Assembly (NCBI GenBank): GCA_951406725.2
Contig: OX597827.1
Location: forward strand, 66,216,001 to 66,280,000
DNA from: Octopus vulgaris
Lineage: Eukaryota
DNA: 64,000 nt
Direction of reading: 5' to 3'
The translations under genes were made by a program, and so were the position numbers. Position 1 is the stretch's first letter. Each line of letters begins with the position of its first letter. Shown here in pieces: positions 3,316 to 64,000 of this stretch. The notes beneath the pieces are model-generated. The model searched no databases and was not told the origin of the DNA. It saw only the letters and a program-made list of their open reading frames with translations.

Positions 3316-3900
3316 GGCGGCGAGCTGGCAGAAGCGTTAGCACGCCGGGCAAAATTATTAGCGGTATTTCGTCTGCGTTACGTTGTGAGTTCAAATTCCG
3401 CCGAGGTCGACTTTGCCTTTCATCCTTTCGGGGTCGAGAAATTAAGTACCAGTTACGCACTGGGGTCGATGTAATCGACTTAATACCTATGTCAGTCCTT
3501 GTTTGTCCCCTCTGTGTTTAGCACCTTGTGGGTAATAAAGAAATTGGTATTTCGTCTGTCTTTACGTTCGGACTTCAAATTCCACCTAGGTCGACTTTGC
3601 CTTTCCGTGTCGATAAACTATGTACCAGTTACGCACTGGGGACGATGTAATCGACTTAATACCTTTGTCTGTCCTTGTTTGTCCCCTCTATGTTTACCCC
3701 CTTGTGGGCAATAAAGATATAAGAAACGTTAGCACGACGGGCGAAATGCTTAGCAGTATTTTTTTTACATTCTGCGGTCGACTTTGCCTTTCATCTTTTC
3801 GGAGTTTACAAATTAAGTACCAGTTGCATACTGTGGTTGATCTAATCAACTGGCCCCCTCTCCTCAAATTTCCAGCCTTGTTCCTAGAGGAGAGAAAAAA
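3316..3900 (+). mobile_element. tRNA-derived SINE family A, tandem/nested cluster (about 3 partial units)
   Basis: ggcggcgagctggcagaa head, gagttcaaattc B-box, repeated gtcgactttgcctttcatcc domain and cttgtggg(t/c)aataaaga tail. Confidence 0.9.
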
Positions 3901-18860: not shown

Positions 18861-19361
18861 GTAGAATATATGAGAAGGCCTTTTCAGAAAAAGTTGTTGG
18901 CTTTATTTAGAATATAAACAGAAGATAAATATTGTGCAAAGTAGTGAATTTTACGGCTTAGTGTAGGTCGCCCTAGACATTCTCAATGATTTCTACCCTT
19001 TGAACCATTTGCCTCCTATTTTACTCAGATTGTCTCTCTCCTTGCCATTCGATGTTTAAAGATCATATTTATATTTTTATAATTAAATATTAATACGAAT
19101 GTTATAAAAATAATATTGAGAACATTTCGTCTCTTGTGGAAGCATAACAAATTAGTTGCAGAAAAATTTTGAACCCTGGGTAAGAAACATTGTTCTACTC
19201 AGTAAATCATTGAGTCTCTCTCTCATTAATTCTCTAATTCCCTCCCTTTCTGTCTGTGTCCCTCACTATCTCTCCCCGCCTCTCTCTCTCTCTCTCTATT
19301 AACTGTTGGCATGCCTATATATCTCGCCTTCTGTCTCTCAGCAATAAACATATATATATAT

Positions 19362-19627
19362 TACGGAGATGAACTTGCATAGCGAGTGACCTGATCTGAG
19401 ATCGTGTGCTGAAACAAAAAACAATTACAGCGTAAAAAAAGTGTTTATAAGACATTTAAAATTACACAGAAACCATTAGATTCACTTCAACATTTAAGCA
19501 CGGAAGTTTTTCTGTGAACAGGTTGCGCGCTCAAAGTGACGAAAATATATTGGCAAATTAAATTTAAACGTTGAAGTGAATCTAATTGTTCTTGTGTGTT
19601 TTTAAATGGCTCATGAACACCTTCCAT
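19362..19627 (+). mobile_element. Penelope-type pLTR fragment with inverted 5' segment and G3:C8 hammerhead-like motif
   Basis: About 19441-19497 is the reverse complement of 19563-19620; core GTGAACA g gttgc...gtgac GAAA at 19514-19544; same family as 42781-42995. Confidence 0.65.
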
Positions 19628-33523: not shown

Positions 33524-33561
<38 letters not shown>

Positions 33562-33744
33562 AAAGGGCTTAGTAAAATAAATTACTTCGCCGCATACTGA
33601 ACTCATTAGAAATAGCAGCTAAAAAACTTTTTTAAAGCTATTTCTAATACTTAAAGAAAATCTCTCTCATATATAGTGTTTGCTTAATTCAACTCACAAA
33701 AGTTTGGGGGTAATGACATCAAAAAATCAAATGCTAAGGTTATT

Positions 33745-33796
33745 TGAGTACGTACGTTTCAAGATTAGTTAAAACAACATTTCTATCTTCAGCTCA
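33745..33796 (-). ncRNA. Hammerhead-like motif (inverted copy)
   Basis: Reverse complement of 34404-34455. Confidence 0.65.
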
Positions 33797-34403
33797 GAAA
33801 TTCCTTGGTTTGGATTTGGAAACACTGAAAGTAAGAACATACCCTTTCGAAGATTCGCTCGTTACTAACAGTGCCAACAAACCCAAAATAAGCAAGTGAA
33901 GAATTTCTGTTCTCCCCTTTCCACCAGCGTGGGTTAAAATCATCAAACGCTATGCTTATTTCGGTAAAATCCGAAGCATTAATTAGAGGGAGATTTTCTT
34001 TAAGTATTAGAAATAGCTTTAAAAAAGTTTTTTAGCTGCTATTTCTAATGAGTTCAGTATGCGGCGAAGTAATTTATTTTACTAAGCCCTTTTATATAAT
34101 GTAATAATTTGAATTCGCCTTAAATGGTCCCTTTGCATACTGAACACTTGGTGAAATTGATTAATAATTAATTAATTTTACCCTCAATTGTTGAAATTAT
34201 AATTAATCTCCCTCTAATTAATGCTTCGGATTTTACCGAAATAAGCATAGCGTTTGATGATTTTAACCCACGCTGGTGGAAAGGGGAGAACAGAAATTCT
34301 TCACTTGCTTATTTTGGGTTTGTTGGCACTGTTAGTAACGAGCGAATCTTCGAAAGGGTATGTTCTTACTTTCAGTGTTTCCAAATCCAAACCAAGGAAT
34401 TTC

Positions 34404-34455
34404 TGAGCTGAAGATAGAAATGTTGTTTTAACTAATCTTGAAACGTACGTACTCA
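34404..34455 (+). ncRNA. Type I hammerhead-like motif, unit 1
   Basis: tgag CTGAAGA t aga...tct t GAAA CGTACG TA ctca; flanking aagg/cctt extends helix I; U-U at 10.1/11.1. Confidence 0.7.
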
Positions 34456-34948
34456 AATAACCTTAGCATATGATTTTTTGATGTCATTACCCCCAAACTT
34501 TTGTGAGTTGAATTAAGCAAACACTATATATGAGAGAGATTTTCTTTAAGTATTAGAAATAGCTTTAAAAAAGTTTTTAGCTGCTATTTCTAATGAGTTC
34601 AGTATGCGGCGAAGTAATTTATTTTACTAAGCCCTTTTATATAATGTAATAATTTGAATTCGCCTTAAATGGTCCCTTTGCATACTGAACACTTGGTGAA
34701 ATTGATTAATAATTAATTAATTTTACCCTCAATTGTTGAAATTATAATTAATCTCCCTCTAATTAATGCTTCGGATTTTACCGAAATAAGCATAGCGTTT
34801 GATGATTTTAACCCACGCTGGTGGAAAGGGGAGAACAGAAATTCTTCACTTGCTTATTTTGGGTTTGTTGGCACTGTTAGTAACGAGCGAATCTTCGAAA
34901 GGGTATGTTCTTACTTTCAGTGTTTCCAAATCCAAACCAAGGAATTTC

Positions 34949-35000
34949 TGAGCTGAAGATAGAAATGTTGTTTTAACTAATCTTGAAACGTACGTACTCA
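34949..35000 (+). ncRNA. Type I hammerhead-like motif, unit 2
   Basis: Core identical to unit 1. Confidence 0.7.
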
Positions 35001-35494
35001 AATAATCTTAGCATTTGATTTTTTGATGTCATTACCCCCAAACTTTTGTGAGTTGAATTAAGCAAACACTATATATGAGAGAGATTTTCTTTAAGTATTA
35101 GAAATAGCTTTAAAAAAGTTTTTTAGCTGCTATTTCTAATGAGTTCAGTATGCGGCGAAGTAATTTATTTTACTAAGCCCTTTTATATAATGTAATAATT
35201 TGAATTCGCCTTAAATGGTCCCTTTGCATACTGAACACTTGGTGAAATTGATTAATAATTAATTAATTTTACCCTCAATTGTTGAAATTATAATTAATCT
35301 CCCTCTAATTAATGCTTCGGATTTTACCGAAATAAGCATAGCGTTTGATGATTTTAACCCACGCTGGTGGAAAGGGGAGAACAGAAATTCTTCACTTGCT
35401 TATTTTGGGTTTGTTGGCACTGTTAGTAACGAGCGAATCTTCGAAAGGGTATGTTCTTACTTTCAGTGTTTCCAAATCCAAACCAAGGAATTTC

Positions 35495-35546
35495 TGAGCT
35501 GAAGATAGAAATGTTGTTTTAACTAATCTTGAAACGTACGTACTCA
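35495..35546 (+). ncRNA. Type I hammerhead-like motif, unit 3
   Basis: Core identical to unit 1. Confidence 0.7.
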
Positions 35547-36207
35547 AATAACCTTAGCATTTGATTTTTTGATGTCATTACCCCCAAACTTTTGTGAGTT
35601 GAATTAAGCAAACACTATATATGAGAGAGATTTTCTTTAAGTATTAGAAATAGCTTTAAAAAAGTTTTTTAGCTGCTATTTCTAATGAGTTCAGTATGCG
35701 GCGAAGTAATTTATTTTACTAAGCCCTTTTATATAATGTAATAATTTGAATTCGCCTTAAATGGTCCCTTTGCATACTGAACACTTGGTGAAATTGATTA
35801 ATAATTAATTAATTTTACCCTCAATTGTTGAAATTATATATATATATATATATATAAACATATTAGGTAAGATCATGAGAGACTACTCGACGTACTCAAG
35901 CAAAGTGCAAGTGTACTTTATAAAGGACTAAATTTTTTTTAAAAATCAATACCTTTCAAATAACTGCGTGTATTATATTCAGGACACTAATCTAATCTGA
36001 TAAACGCAGATGCATTGAAAGTTTTCCCGAAGCAAACGAGGATCACTTGTCTTGTTTCGTCCTCTACAGTTAATATAAACGCCATGACCAAAGTAAATAC
36101 TCATCGATTGGAAAACAAATAAAATGCAGCAAGAAATGAAATTGTCAAATATTTATTTTTCCATCAAGCGATTCATCGAAATTAAGAAATTATAAATGAA
36201 TAAATAA

Positions 36208-42657: not shown

Positions 42658-42775
42658 GGCGTAGCAATGGCTGTGTGGTAAGTAGCTTGCTTACCACACA
42701 CATTGTTCTGGTTTCAGTCCCAGTGAGTGGCACCATGGGCAAGTGCCTTCTACTATAGCCTCAAGCCGACCAAAG
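42658..42775 (+). mobile_element. SINE family B 5' portion, truncated at the foldback element
   Basis: Family B head ending at gccgaccaaagc. Confidence 0.85.
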
Positions 42776-42780
42776 CGTAA

Positions 42781-42997
42781 GAATCACTTCAACATTAAAA
42801 TTTAATTTGTCAAAATATTTTCGTCGCTTTTAGACCTCGGCCTGTTCACTGACAAACTTTCGTGCTGCACAGAGTTTTGTCAGTGAACAAGTCGAGGTCT
42901 CCAAGCGACGAAAATATTTTGACAAATTAAATTTAAATGTTGAAGTGAATCTAACGGTTTTTCTTAAATGGCTTACAGACACCTTCCACGCTGCAAT
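42781..42997 (+). mobile_element. Penelope-type pLTR fragment with hairpin (inverted) 5' end
   Basis: 42782-42858 is the reverse complement of 42874-42950; same family as the 19362, 60808 and 63014 copies. Confidence 0.75.
42876..42926 (+). ncRNA. Hammerhead-like motif with compensatory G3:C8 core (mirror copy at 42806-42856, minus strand)
   Basis: tttgtca GTGAACA a gtcg aggtctccaag cgac GAAA ATAT TT tgacaaa; 7 bp helix I, 4 bp helix II, palindromic AATATT helix III. Confidence 0.65.
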
Positions 42998-43072
<75 letters not shown>

Positions 43073-43073
43073 T

Positions 43074-43129
<56 letters not shown>

Positions 43130-43130
43130 C

Positions 43131-43169
<39 letters not shown>

Positions 43170-48599: not shown

Positions 48600-49013
48600 A
48601 TTTCTTTATTGCCCACAGAGGGCTAACCACAGAGGGGACAAACAAGAACAGACAAAGGGCTTAAGTCGGTTACATCGACCGCAGTGCGTAACTGGAACTT
48701 AATTTATCGACCCCGAAAGGATGAAAGGCAAAGTCGACCTCGGCGGAATTTGAACTCAGAACGTAACGGCAGACGAAATACCTACTCCTTTACTACCCAC
48801 AAGCGGCTAAACACAGAGAGGACAAACAAGGACAGACAAAGGTATTAAGTCGATTATATCAACCCTAGTGAGTAACTGGTACTTAATTTATCGATCCCGA
48901 AGGGATGAAAGTTAAAGTCGACCTCGTCGGAATTTGAAATCAGAACGTAACGGCAACCGAAATACCGCTAAGCATTTCGCCCGACGTGCTAACGATTCTG
49001 CCACTTCGCCGCC
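48600..49013 (-). mobile_element. SINE family A tandem dimer
   Basis: Two consecutive reverse-complement units. Confidence 0.9.
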
Positions 49014-59376: not shown

Positions 59377-60807
59377 CATATTGCATCGGGCCGACCATTC
59401 CCTTGCGAGTGGATTAGGTAGACGAAAACTGAAAGAAGGCCGTCGTATATGTATATATACATTTATTATGCACATATATATATGTATATATATATAGTGA
59501 TTTATGTTTGAGAGATATAAACGTTATGGACTGCAAACATACAAAAAGTATAGGCTTAGCTTGTTTTCTGGATGCGCTGGTTCATAACATTTGGAGACGA
59601 CATCTTATAACACAATGTGTTAAAACAACCGTAAATCATAATGAATTCGATATTTGATTTTACCCGTGATGTACCGGAACATACACCGAATCAAAACTTG
59701 TCCCTATCTACAGGGAACCAATCAACACAAACATATACATACATACAAAATATGAAAACACACACGAAAAAATAACAAGACGTCGTCAAATTTATTACCA
59801 ATCAAAACTTTGGCAGTTGCCAGTAAAGCTTGTACACAAAATATCTTCCGATTCCACCCCCACTAAAAATAAAAGTACGTGAAAAGAAAGAGACTAGAAC
59901 ACGAAGAACACTACGACAGAAATTGTGAAAAAAAGCACTTATTCTTTGTCACTCAATTTTTTCCCTCTCTGTCTTACCCACGTATTTTATATAAAAAAAC
60001 TCTATATATTATGATTTTCCATGATGTTATGATTCTTTATGATCATTTAACTTCATATGATAAATCCCTGAGAAACTCATTGAAATTTCTGTCAGCATTT
60101 GAATATTTTAAACTCTGATAAAAACCACTTTGTTTTATATATGTTTTAATTCATTGCTAGCGAAGACATTGATGAAACTAGTTTGGTATGTGAACAAATT
60201 TATTTAAAAACAACTACGCATTCAAGCGTGTTTCAAACCCCAAAACAAATTCTCGTACAATTTCTCCTGCGAGGAATACACAACTTTCCCTATATATATA
60301 TTAGTTATAACATACAGTATACATTTAAACACATAAGGAATCCACTCGTGGGATTCAACGCGCTAGAAAGAACAGCTTGGTTCTATAATCACAAAATTTA
60401 GGGATAGAATTCGACAGGAACGAAATAAAAAAATAAAAACATTTTACCATCAAGTTTCCTGGACCAATTGGTTTCTGATTTTAGTTTGGCAAGTAAATAA
60501 CATTTACTCGCGAGGTGAAATCCTCTTCAGCAGGAACACCTTGGGTTAAATATATAAACACGAGGCGATAAAACTATGTGCCTCTTGTTTATACATAGTA
60601 ATTTTTTACAAAATTTACTGCGCATACGCAGCCCTTTGCCGGCAGTAAACGTGTGCCAACTTTTAAAAACCGAAAATTATCCAAAAACTTACAATACTTA
60701 ATTATATGAAAGGGAAATGGAAATTTATTAAAATTTTCCTTTCCAGTGGCCTAACGTGTAAACATTTAATCCAAAGACTATGTATTAGTCATAACATACA
60801 GTGTACA

Positions 60808-60896
60808 TTGACAAATTAAATTTGAATGTTGAAGTGAATCTAACGGATTTTGTATGTTTTGAAATAGCTTATAAACACCTTCCACGCTACAACTGT

Positions 60897-60900
<4 letters not shown>
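60808..60900 (+). mobile_element. 3' fragment of the G3:C8 hammerhead-bearing family, running into (TA)n
   Basis: Matches 42919-42997; duplicate begins at 63014. Confidence 0.8.
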
Positions 60901-60934
<34 letters not shown>

Positions 60935-61129
60935 CTGGAAACAGAAATTTCAAAATATAAACCATGAAGTAAATGGCTGGGTCAAGTTTATCAGACTAAT
61001 CTGTGACAGAACAAAATATTTTTTTTAAAGATAGATGGCGCTAGGGTGAATGCTTTTCTTCATTTACTTTTGAACCTGTAGAAATTTTTACATTAAAATC
61101 TGAGTCAAATTAGTAACTTTCAAAAGTTT

Positions 61130-61478
61130 CAGTAATTTGACTATGGTCATGCCGGAGCACCGCTTTTTTTCGACCAAATCGACCCCAGGACTTATTATTT
61201 GTAAGCTTCTTGGCCAAACCGCTACGTTACGGGGACGTAAACACACCAGCATCGGTTGTCAAGCGATGTTGCGGGGACAAACTCAGACACACAAACATAT
61301 ATATATATATATATATGTATACGATGGGCTTCTTTCAGTTTTTGTCAACGAAATCCACTCACAAGGCTTTAGTTGTCCCCAGGCTATAGTAAAATACACT
61401 TGCCCAAGGTTCCACACAGTGGGACTGAACCCGAAACCATGTGGTTCGTTAGCAAGTTACTTACCACACAGCCACGCC
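61130..61478 (-). mobile_element. SINE family B
   Basis: Reverse complement of family B. Confidence 0.88.
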
Positions 61479-63099
61479 TACGCCTACGCATTTGTTATAA
61501 TTTTAATAAGTTTTTACGTTTATAATTTACATTTCTACTATAGTTCCAAGTAATGAAGTTTTTCAAAAATGCGTCTTGGCGAACACATTCCTTCCTGTGC
61601 CTGACTGGTACTTTTTTTTATTCTTCTACGAAACGATAATCACATCTTGGTTTGTTTTGTTTTTTTTTGTTTTTTTGTGGTGTGGGGTCTACCCTCTACT
61701 AAGTCGTTGTTTATATTTCTGTATCCGGCGGCACCATTCTTAATCTACACGAAAGCCTTACAATAGAGTTCATTAGGAATCTACAGTGTCTTTCTTCATC
61801 CGCAGTAGGGAACTTCCTCCTATTCCATTTCCTCTTTTGTTATGATGGATTTCATTTATTGGTTCACCTGACTATCCGTTTTCATTCTCGAAGTTTATAA
61901 ACTTTCCTCGCAGAATCTCATACCCCCTAAACATATCGACTGATCCTCTCATCTGTTCTTCTTTTCCTCATTTCTTTCTTTTTACATTTTTCTTTTTGTC
62001 TCTTTATTAGCCACAAGAGCCCAAAATAGACGGGGACAAAAAAGGACAGACAAGACACCACAGAGGGGACAATACAAAAAAACGAATATGAATGAGATGA
62101 TTATATGACAATGAGGTTATGAATGGCTGCATGCACCCCTCATCACATTCAGTACCATTAATCTTTTTTTTCAGTCCATTTTTATCATGTATATAACAAT
62201 TATCATGTTACATACCATTGCAAGTATTTGAACTGTTATATTCATGCTCTACAATTGATCTTCTATTTTCCAATATTTTTTAAACATAACATAAAACACT
62301 TTACTCTTTCGTTTTTTTCTCTTTTTCCTCCTTTTTCTTTTCTTCTTTTTCATGTCAATTTAACATACTTACTTTCATTTTTCTCTCTTTTTCCTCCTTT
62401 TTCTTTTCTTTTTTTTTTCCTGTCAATTTAACATACTTTCATTTTAATAGTACTTCATCAACGGTTCGATTTCTATAAAATCCACTACGGATGGCAATTC
62501 TTTGAAATCCACACTTAATCCTGGTGGGTCAATACTATCTCCACGCATTTCTTCCAGTTTCTTGTAATTTTCCTTTTCGATCACTATCGCCTTTATATCA
62601 TCTGCATATATGAATGGTAGTACTTTCACTCTTACTATTTGATTAAAGTTGACTATCTTCTTCTCTGTTTCTACATTTTTTTCATTCTTCTTTTATCATT
62701 CCATTTTCCCCCATTGCTTCCTCGTTTTCCTTTCATTTTATCATGTCTTCTTTCTCTATTCATTTCTATAAACACCTTTTTCCTCATATATCACACTGGC
62801 ATTAAAACTATGTGCCTCATATCAAGATCATAGTAATATTATTCTGCTAATCTCGTTACGCCCTCTTTGCCGGCAGTAAACGTTCTATTTTAAAAACCGA
62901 AAATTATAAACTTACAATACTAATTTCCATGATTTATTAAAATTTTTTTCAGTGGCCTAACGTGTAAACATTTAATCCAAAGACTATGTATTAGTCATAA
63001 CATACAGTGTACATTGACAAATTAAATTTGAATGTTGAAGTGAATCTAACGGATTTTGTATGTTTTGAAATAGCTAATACACCTTCTACGGGTATTTGT

Positions 63100-63135
<36 letters not shown>

Positions 63136-63330
63136 CTGGAAACAGAAATTTCAAAATATAAACCATGAAGTAAATGGCTGGGTCAAGTTTATCAGACTAA
63201 TCTGTGACAGAACAAAATATTTTTTTTAAAGATAGATGGCGCTAGGGTGAATGCTTTTCTTCATTTACTTTTGAACCTGTAGAAATTTTTACATTAAAAT
63301 CTGAGTCAAATTAGTAACTTTCAAAAGTTT

Positions 63331-63678
63331 CAGTAATTTGACTATGGTCATGCCGGAGCACCGCTTTTTTTCGACCAAATCGACCCCAGGACTTATTATT
63401 TGTAAGCTTCTTGGCCAAACCGCTACGTTACGGGGACGTAAACACACCAGCATCGGTTGTCAAGCGATGTTGCGGGGACAAACTCAGACACACAAACATA
63501 TATATATATATATATATATGTATACGATGGGCTTCTTTCAGTTTTTGTCAACGAAATCCACTCACAAGGCTTTAGTTGTGCCCAGGCTATAGTAAAATAC
63601 ACTTGCCCAAGGTTCCACACAGTGGGACTGAACCCGAAACCATGTGGTTCGTTAGCAAGTTACTTACCACACAGCCAC
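63331..63678 (-). mobile_element. SINE family B (duplicate of 61130-61478)
   Basis: Near-identical to copy 1. Confidence 0.88.
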
Positions 63679-64000
63679 GTGTAATTTTAATAATGTTTAT
63701 AATACATTTATAAACAAGTTTTATGTTTATAATTTTACTTCTACGAAACGATAATCACACTTATTTGTTTTGTTTTGTTTTGTGGTGTTCTACCCTCTAC
63801 TAAGTCGTTGTTTATATTTCTGTATCCGGCGGCACCATTCTTAATCTACACGAAAGCCTAATAAAAAATCAGAAAATATTTTGTTTTTTGAATTTTTTGT
63901 GTGATTTTAAATTGGTTCACCTGACACTCTCAGATCATCATTCTAAGTCTTATAATTTTTTTTTTTATCTTTCTTTATTCCTCTCATCTGTTTCCTCTTT

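What the first reader, a model, noticed from the sequence alone, without database searches (positions are those of the whole stretch)
42781..42997. Natural G3:C8 swapped-core hammerhead present twice as a head-to-head hairpin
Seen: the core reads GUGAACA instead of CUGANGA, so both partners of the 3-8 pair are swapped. It has a 7 bp helix I (tttgtca/tgacaaa), gtcg/cgac helix II, palindromic AATATT helix III and a UUU triplet. The same core occurs in the mirror arm (42806-42856) and in an independent copy (19514), so it is a family trait rather than decay. A standard CUGANGA search would miss it.
Basis: partly seen in the sequence, partly recalled or inferred. Interest (0 to 1): 0.8.

Follow-up and report, generated by a model that had tools for sequence, protein, structure and literature searches.

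The report
Swapped-pair hammerhead in Penelope retroelement
A jumping gene with thousands of copies in this animal genome carries a hammerhead-type RNA motif in which two paired core letters have traded places, and it likely still cuts itself slowly, while the mirror-image hairpin it sits in here is the element's usual insertion pattern and is predicted to block the motif.

Summary
It is the 5' leader of a Penelope-like element (PLE: RT plus GIY-YIG), 56 nt before the start codon. G3:C8 is the family state: 5,820 exact matches, 0 for C3:G8 in the same context; 46 of 52 sampled arms. Sister PLE families in the same genome carry the homologous motif with C3:G8 and double changes in helices I and II, so the swap is natural covariation. 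The hairpin is not a ribozyme dimer: 32 of 52 independent loci are head-to-head, and read-through RNA buries the motif. The mirror arm and the 19514 copy are decayed. Against a strict need for the pair: an unpaired G3.G8 sub-lineage (about 150 copies) also spread, and inserts do not start at the cut site (1 of 78). Cleavage is untested. I found no paper reporting natural G3:C8 (8 searches; Lunse 2017 unreadable); this scan noted G3:C8 before in protist PLEs and phages. New variant of a known kind.

The parts
42863..43000 (+). Right arm: 5'-leader/pseudo-LTR fragment of the PLE, family positions about 2-147 (no tail)
   Evidence: 89% to natural family copy L016:1491-1694
42876..42882 (+). Hammerhead helix I, 5' strand
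   Evidence: 7 of 7 pairs with 42920-42926
42883..42889 (+). Core box GUGAACA: G3 at 42883, C8 at 42888, A9 at 42889
42890..42890 (+). Extra unpaired base between A9 and G10.1 (A here, G in 89 of 97 sampled arms)
   Evidence: trait described in PMC4209133
42891..42909 (+). Helix II (4 bp here, 5 bp in the family) and its loop; G10.1-C11.1 present
42910..42919 (+). G12 A13 A14, palindromic helix III AAUAUU (42913-42918), U17; predicted cut after 42919
   Evidence: self-duplex only -0.2 kcal/mol
42920..42926 (+). Helix I, 3' strand
42968..43000 (+). First codons of the PLE ORF (remnant); in tandem copies L176 and L182 this frame runs on into the RT protein
42772..42869 (-). Left (mirror) arm, family positions 2-99; hammerhead remnant 42806-42856, G3 at 42849, helix II broken; 3' part missing where it abuts another repeat
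43001..43169 (.). (TG)/(TA)/(GA)/(GATA) microsatellite next to the right arm, the usual target type of this family
42658..42779 (+). Fragment of a different dispersed repeat (SINE-like, label recalled) abutting the left arm
   Evidence: its 3' part has at least 5 other copies in the window
19497..19626 (+). Second, older head-to-head insertion, plus arm; swapped box at 19514-19520, fold decayed
19354..19497 (-). Minus arm of that insertion, family positions 72-204, with the tail
60808..60899 (+). 5'-truncated copy starting at family position 58, next to the predicted cut site; no core box
63014..63090 (+). Duplicate of the 60808 copy inside a local 0.9-kb duplication (one event, not two)

Best explanation
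This is the 5' leader of a Penelope-like retrotransposon carrying a minimal type I hammerhead motif whose 3-8 pair is naturally reversed (G3:C8), which likely self-cleaves slowly and only as a dimer or with the element's protein, and the head-to-head hairpin is likely a by-product of insertion that is predicted to block the motif. Shown: the motif, its copy number, its place 56 nt before the start codon of an RT + GIY-YIG ORF, C3:G8 at the same place in sister families, and two fixed 3' ends (about 147 and 204) split between the two arms. Inferred steps: (1) transcription starts about 20 nt before the box, where 5' ends pile up; (2) helices I and II fold; helix III has 1 bp as a monomer and needs a second copy (the next tandem unit or another RNA) pairing through AAUAUU, or protein help; (3) G3:C8 gives the Watson-Crick pair that holds the ribose of residue 8 as general acid (established hammerhead chemistry, recalled), at reduced rate; (4) a cut after U17 would separate the 5' end from the ORF, trimming units or regulating translation, but is not needed for insertion; (5) the RT-EN protein nicks both strands of an AT-rich target and starts reverse transcription at two internal sites on mostly uncut RNA, giving diverging arms, one with and one without the tail. 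This particular locus is probably a dead copy.
For: Motif and fold. Family state: 5,820 exact G3:C8 matches, 0 C3:G8, controls 0; 46 of 52 arms from independent loci G3:C8, 0 C3:G8. PLE: pLTR runs into the ORF in L176/L182; DKSG, YVDD and CxxxCxxC read in the ORF; GIY-YIG passes the Pfam cut-off (24.6 bits vs 22.6); Atlas first hit 0.97 to an HTH_animal/RVT_1/GIY-YIG cluster. Covariation: a sister PLE (68-70% aa in the RT part; 36% in the N-terminal part) has C3:G8, a double change in helix II and two in helix I; 6,128 homologous non-G3 motifs vs control 7, about 87 of the first 100 listed C3:G8 and 20 of 100 fully canonical CUGANGA (hand count); 12 of the first 100 of 126 rows are a diverged G3:C8 lineage with other N7 and loop II. 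Lineage-level changes avoid core and helices II/III (0 of 26 positions) but hit loop II and flanks (11 of 67; Fisher p 0.03), and both helix I changes keep pairing. Insertion pattern: 32 of 52 loci head-to-head, 25 of 32 with one arm ending near 147 and the other near 204; same asymmetry in 6 of 9 longer loci. Literature: C3G/G8C partly rescues a PLE hammerhead, which needs the protein and is dispensable for insertion; both strands are cut and extended; two RT start sites make the tail (PMC11167929).
Against: No cleavage data. About 150 copies are G3.G8 (37 of the first 100 of 423 rows), about 9 times the reciprocal transversion (7 of the first 100 of 236), and one is a tandem pLTR-ORF copy (L193): a lineage without the pair spread too. 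The very young, abundant sister family has C at position 9 (about 60 of 100 rows), so core letters are not strictly kept in this clade. 5' ends do not pile at the cut site (1 of 78 arms; 4 of 30, no more than an even spread would give). The helix III self-duplex is very weak (-0.2 kcal/mol). Pfam RVT_1 did not hit the RT. The p of 0.03 is driven by loop II and rests on two subfamilies, with passenger copies not collapsed.
Confidence: 0.72

Rival explanations
1. The motif descends from a hammerhead but no longer cuts; it is kept as a structure (protein-binding or promoter/leader element) or just carried along, and G3:C8 arose by two tolerated changes.
For: G3.G8 sub-lineage spread; sister family with C9 is young and abundant; no insert pile-up at the cut site; hammerhead mutants of a lizard PLE insert normally (PMC11167929); PLE minimal hammerheads cut poorly in vitro (PMC4209133).
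Against: Two transversions that exactly restore a Watson-Crick pair at the only core pair known to allow swaps; G3:C8 kept across lineages that differ in N7, loop II and helix III; no lineage-level change in 26 core/helix positions.
Confidence: 0.22
2. The head-to-head hairpin itself is the functional unit (two hammerheads acting together, or a regulatory dsRNA selected at this locus).
For: Very stable 189-nt hairpin; such hairpins are common (32 of 52 loci) and could feed small-RNA silencing of the family.
Against: Only one arm is sense in any transcript; the duplex leaves helix I at about 1e-44; the left arm is decayed and truncated; junctions differ from locus to locus and the 147/204 asymmetry is the PLE insertion signature (PMC8557442).
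Confidence: 0.04
3. It is a MITE or other DNA-transposon inverted repeat and the hammerhead likeness is chance.
For: Short, high-copy, often palindromic, TA-rich targets.
Against: Arms diverge from variable 5' junctions, 20 of 52 loci are not head-to-head, the sequence runs into an RT-EN ORF, sister families hold the canonical core, chance control 0 of 300.
Confidence: 0.02

Closest known systems
Minimal type I hammerheads of metazoan Penelope-like elements (Cervera and De la Pena 2014, PMC4209133)
   Same: Type I layout in the pLTR; extra base between 9 and 10.1; G10.1-C11.1; tiny palindromic helix III implying a dimer; motifs in opposite strands close together; many solo copies.
   Different: 3-8 pair is G3:C8; that paper reports C3:G8 and U3:A8 only (text parts 1-2 of 4 read; none of 9 'GUGA' hits in supplement file 2 is a core box). 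Helix I is 7 bp.
Natural U3:A8 core covariants (Perreault et al. 2011, PMC3088659, section 8 read)
   Same: Both partners of the 3-8 pair changed, pair kept.
   Different: Purine and pyrimidine are reversed here (two transversions); not listed in that section.
PAc/Poseidon PLE of Anolis and its engineered C3G/G8C hammerhead (PMC11167929, main text read)
   Same: Hammerhead at the pLTR-ORF junction, two RT start sites inside the ORF start giving the tail, AT-rich targets; the lab double mutant equals the natural state here.
   Different: Here the swap is natural and fixed, the ORF starts 56 nt after the cut site, the tail is about 57 nt, and the protein has a CxxxCxxC linker (Neptune/Nematis type by PMC8557442; clade not tested by a tree).
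5'-UTR type I hammerheads of chrysoviruses (PMC13725137, abstract and passages)
   Same: Type I hammerhead a short way before an ORF.
   Different: RNA viruses, cleavage shown and tied to cap-independent translation; nothing of the kind is shown here.

Membership tests
Type I hammerhead (PLE minimal form) | Helices I and II around the core in type I order | tested here: met
   7 bp and 4 bp (5 bp in family); mean pair probability 0.78 for the right arm alone, 0.94 and 0.96 for two family copies
Type I hammerhead (PLE minimal form) | Literal box CUGANGA | tested here: not met
   GUGAACA; 0 C3:G8 matches in family context
Type I hammerhead (PLE minimal form) | Watson-Crick pair between 3 and 8 | tested here: met
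   G3:C8 in 46 of 52 arms; C3:G8 in sister families; exception: about 150 G3.G8 copies
Type I hammerhead (PLE minimal form) | U4 G5 A6, A9, G12 A13 A14, A15.1-U16.1, H17, G10.1-C11.1 | tested here: met
   All present in the right arm; 30 of 52 sampled arms keep all 13 scored core letters
Type I hammerhead (PLE minimal form) | Extra base after position 9 and palindromic helix III | tested here: met
   A42890; AAUAUU 42913-42918
Type I hammerhead (PLE minimal form) | Match to an Rfam hammerhead model | tested here: not met
   None at E up to 10 for the window arm or L176
Type I hammerhead (PLE minimal form) | Site-specific self-cleavage after H17 | not testable with these tools
   Genomic 5' ends show no pile-up at the site (1 of 78), which is neutral because PLEs copy uncut RNA
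Penelope-like element (EN+) | Single ORF with PLE-type RT and C-terminal GIY-YIG | tested here: met
   671-aa frame in L134 with YVDD, DKSG upstream, GIY-YIG above cut-off, Atlas 0.97; RVT_1 itself not hit
Penelope-like element (EN+) | Pseudo-LTR in partial tandem before the ORF | tested here: met
   L176, L182, L193 and both sister copies
Penelope-like element (EN+) | Inverted 5'-truncated copy and a tail at one end only | tested here: met
   25 of 32 head-to-head loci; 6 of 9 long loci
Penelope-like element (EN+) | Intron in the leader (some PLEs) | tested here: inconclusive
   A branch-point/polypyrimidine/AG-like stretch precedes position 1 in 735 copies, but no common upstream exon is seen in inserts and no such joint in contigs; an initiator reading fits as well
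Neptune/Nematis clade of PLEs | Cys-rich linker between RT and EN; clade placement by RT tree | tested here: inconclusive
   CxxxCxxC read in the ORF; no tree with reference elements was made
Retrozyme (non-autonomous, non-coding tandem with hammerhead) | Short non-coding direct tandem units, no own ORF | tested here: not met
   The unit is the leader and first codons of a coding PLE
MITE / DNA transposon | Fixed terminal inverted repeats on every copy | tested here: not met
   20 of 52 loci not head-to-head; ends asymmetric and 5'-variable

The most novel reading that the evidence does not exclude
One genome holds a natural evolutionary series of one PLE hammerhead: canonical C3:G8, C3:G8 with C9, fixed G3:C8, and a G3.G8 (and rare U3.G8) offshoot that is either the preserved half-way step of the swap or a reversion. 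G3:C8 is an active, selected ribozyme whose cut 56 nt before the start codon switches the RNA from capped template to translated message, which would make the open question of what PLE hammerheads do directly testable with natural alleles.
Probability: 0.25. Interest if true: 0.72.

Novelty: new variant of a known kind. Interest (0 to 1): 0.46.

Why it matters
The reversed 3-8 pair was known to me and to the papers I could read only as a laboratory rescue mutant; here it is fixed in a recently active animal retroelement with thousands of copies, next to sister families with the standard pair. It shows that CUGANGA-based searches undercount hammerheads (relevant to PLE clades called hammerhead-free on the basis of such descriptors, PMC8557442) and it offers natural alleles (C3:G8, G3:C8, G3.G8, C9) for testing whether PLE hammerheads need to cut at all. 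It does not change hammerhead chemistry, and the hairpin at this locus is ordinary.

Tried and rejected
Rfam over the whole window: the 150 rows shown of 236 were microsatellite-driven miRNA matches; targeted scans gave no hammerhead. Within-family conservation of core vs flank: nearly flat (0.97 vs 0.95), uninformative. Pile-up of insert 5' ends at the cut site: suggested by the window copy at 60808 and by 10 of 30 starts at positions 55-69, not upheld in the unbiased set (1 of 78). My first count of 83 arms held repeated copies of one passenger insertion and was replaced (34 passenger loci collapsed to 1, one overlapping locus dropped; L221/L222 are near-duplicates, both kept). Extra G before AG at 5' ends as a sign of a copied cap (11 of 23): confounded by inverted-arm microhomology, not claimed. 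A general G3:C8 pattern with ACRUU helix III gave 24 vs control 24: no further large family. Sequencing runs: no RNA holder listed; the four runs laid are contigs and show no starts, ends or splice joints; nothing is concluded on expression. PDB sequence search: nothing relevant. Pfam on the whole ORF and RT part: no RT hit. No earlier scan notes on this genome or sequence. Papers not held: Lunse et al. 2017, Przybilski and Hammann 2007, Martick and Scott 2006, Lee and York 2008. Flanks and ORFs of the CUGAAGA sister family, of the diverged G3:C8 lineage and of most G3.G8 copies were not read, so their PLE context and order of descent stay open.

Full report
1. Observation. The window lies in a 2.8-Gb animal assembly (G000:C14), probably a mollusc (Atlas neighbours; octopus-like repeats by recall, not tested). 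Bases 42772-42960 form an inverted repeat (86.8% over 189 nt; -113.3 kcal/mol, z -21). The right arm has helix I (7 of 7 pairs), GUGAACA at 42883-42889, one unpaired A, a 4-bp helix II closed by G10.1-C11.1, GAAA, the palindrome AAUAUU and U17 at 42919. A strict scan finds this one site in the window and none in 300 resampled windows. The mirror arm has the same box, but its helix II is broken (probability 0.00), and the 19514 copy has lost two helix I pairs and U16.1. Rfam has no hammerhead match.

2. The family. Positions below count along natural copy L016:1491-1694. The genome search returned 51 matches from 40 scored of 816 candidates, at 88-91% for full-length ones. Exact patterns give 5,820 G3:C8 matches, 0 with C3:G8 in the same context and 3,791 for a downstream 25-mer, all with control 0. 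A blind 400-kb sample held 2 hits, one near-complete. These counts overstate independent insertions: of 86 loci taken from the first 100 listed 25-mer places, 34 are one hairpin insertion carried inside another repeat. After collapsing them and dropping one overlap, 52 loci remain: 46 of 52 arms that cover the motif are G3:C8, none C3:G8, and 30 keep all 13 scored core letters. Contigs of four runs under four organism labels list no variant at 10% or more across the core among the rows shown (12 rows not shown), and three show the G3:C8 box in loose-end letters; this speaks to presence in DNA only.

3. What the family is. Copies that reach further upstream (735 exact matches) lead into microsatellite-rich 3' sequence and the end of an ORF. 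[quoted passage not shown] In L176 and L182 positions 1-204 run straight on into this ORF, whose start codon is 56 nt after the predicted cut. So the repeat is the leader and first codons of a Penelope-like element, that is its pseudo-LTR plus tail.

4. The hairpin. 32 of 52 independent loci are head-to-head, with differing junctions; in 25 of the 32 one arm ends near 147 and the other near 204; 72 of 78 arms end at one of these two places. Six of nine longer loci show the same asymmetry around ORF fragments. Inverted 5'-truncated copies and a one-sided tail are described PLE traits (PMC8557442, passages), and the purified lizard PLE protein cuts and extends both strands and starts at two internal sites that define the tail (PMC11167929, main text). 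In RNA read through the hairpin only one arm is sense and helix I has probability about 1e-44. The arrangement is therefore not a ribozyme dimer; the dimer that such motifs need comes from direct tandem copies or a second RNA (PMC4209133, parts 1-2 of 4).

5. Is the swap a kept pair? For: a sister PLE (68-70% aa over the query, frames to 1,312 aa) has the motif at the same place before its ORF with C3:G8, one double change in helix II and two in helix I, though its helix I is shorter and has a mismatch. A pattern for homologous motifs without G3 gives 6,128 matches vs control 7; of the first 100 listed about 87 are C3:G8, about 60 with C9 and 20 fully canonical, the latter sharing N7, the extra G and four of five helix II pairs with this family (hand count). 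Twelve of the first 100 of 126 rows are a diverged G3:C8 lineage with C or U at position 7 and a loop like the sisters'. Between the older (104 arms) and younger (23 arms) subfamilies, lineage-level changes hit 0 of 26 core and helix II/III positions, 2 of 14 helix I positions (both keep pairing), 5 of 9 loop II and 6 of 58 flank positions (p 0.03; passengers not collapsed). Against: of 423 copies with G3 but not C8, 37 of the first 100 are G8, about 150 copies, against about 17 for the reciprocal transversion (7 of the first 100 of 236); L193, a tandem pLTR-ORF copy, is one. So a lineage without the pair also moved. The abundant sister with C9 points the same way: cutting may be weak or dispensable for mobility. 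Insert 5' ends pile at positions 1-5 (36 of 78) and not at the cut site (1 of 78; 4 of 30), so uncut RNA is the usual template, as reported for the lizard element.

6. Mechanism. Shown: anatomy, copy number, ORF link, covariation between families, insertion geometry. Inferred: transcription start near position 1, folding of helices I and II, completion of helix III in a dimer or with protein (self-duplex only -0.2 kcal/mol), slow cleavage after U17 through the reversed pair (the engineered C3G/G8C partly rescues a PLE hammerhead; the general-acid role of the ribose at 8 is recalled), and a role in trimming or translation rather than insertion (5'-UTR hammerheads drive cap-independent translation in some RNA viruses, PMC13725137, abstract and passages). 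I put about 0.72 on this reading, 0.22 on a non-cutting descendant. This locus itself is probably inert.

7. Comparison and novelty. It works like, and by all testable features except the literal box and an Rfam match belongs with, the minimal PLE hammerheads. Natural U3:A8 is in print (PMC3088659 section 8; PMC4209133). Eight paper searches showed G3:C8 only as a laboratory variant (PMC11167929; PMC3884650 passages); none of 9 GUGA hits in supplement file 2 of PMC4209133 is a core box (file 1 not searchable). Lunse et al. 2017, the paper most likely to list such variants, was not held, so priority is not settled. This scan's earlier notes record G3:C8 motifs in protist PLEs and phages (unchecked AI notes, not tested here), none on this genome.

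8. Verdict. Real, a family trait, a new variant of a known kind; the hairpin is ordinary. Interest 0.46: modestly surprising to a specialist, useful because one genome supplies natural alleles for asking what PLE hammerheads do.

Noticed in passing
L147, L149, L160, L162 and 30 more of L140-169/L200-255: One head-to-head insertion of this family (same junction, same flanks) rides inside a carrier repeat of about 1.5 kb that ends in a GC hairpin plus CTAG (Helitron-like, label recalled); it makes up 34 of 86 sampled loci, so exact-match counts overstate independent insertions.
   Followed up: partly
L256-L259; G000:C1:59395069 and many others: A very young sister PLE family with many near-identical copies and open frames up to 1,312 aa; its hammerhead has C at the normally fixed A9.
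   Followed up: partly
L193:196-245, L107; listings: G3.G8 sub-lineage (about 150 copies) and 5 U3.G8 rows in 100; step on the way to the swap or a reversion, not resolved.
   Followed up: partly
L064, L065, L075, L093, L004, L177 (C3:G8); L099, L135, L137, L186 (U3:A8): Other minimal hammerhead families in the same genome, so three kinds of 3-8 pair occur side by side.
   Followed up: no
window 33551-35830: A 546-nt unit in tandem (about 3.4 copies, about 99% alike) with a 445-nt perfect inverted copy at its start, between TA runs: PLE-like insertion geometry of another, very young family; near 34047-34085 a degenerate hammerhead-like string.
   Followed up: no
L176:128-153 and 735 genomic matches: Stretch just before family position 1 reads like a 3' splice site and also like an initiator; 36 of 78 insert 5' ends lie at positions 1-5.
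   Followed up: partly
window 60550-61480 and 62790-63680 (approx.): Local duplication of about 0.9 kb, 92% identical, holding the two truncated family copies.
   Followed up: partly
window 3363-3717 and 48604-48966: Two-copy tandems of 176 and 184 nt, probably SINE-like repeats.
   Followed up: no
L102:1-1150: C-terminal part of a different PLE ORF (GIY-YIG-like) lying directly upstream of a 5'-truncated copy of this family: nested insertion or chimera.
   Followed up: no
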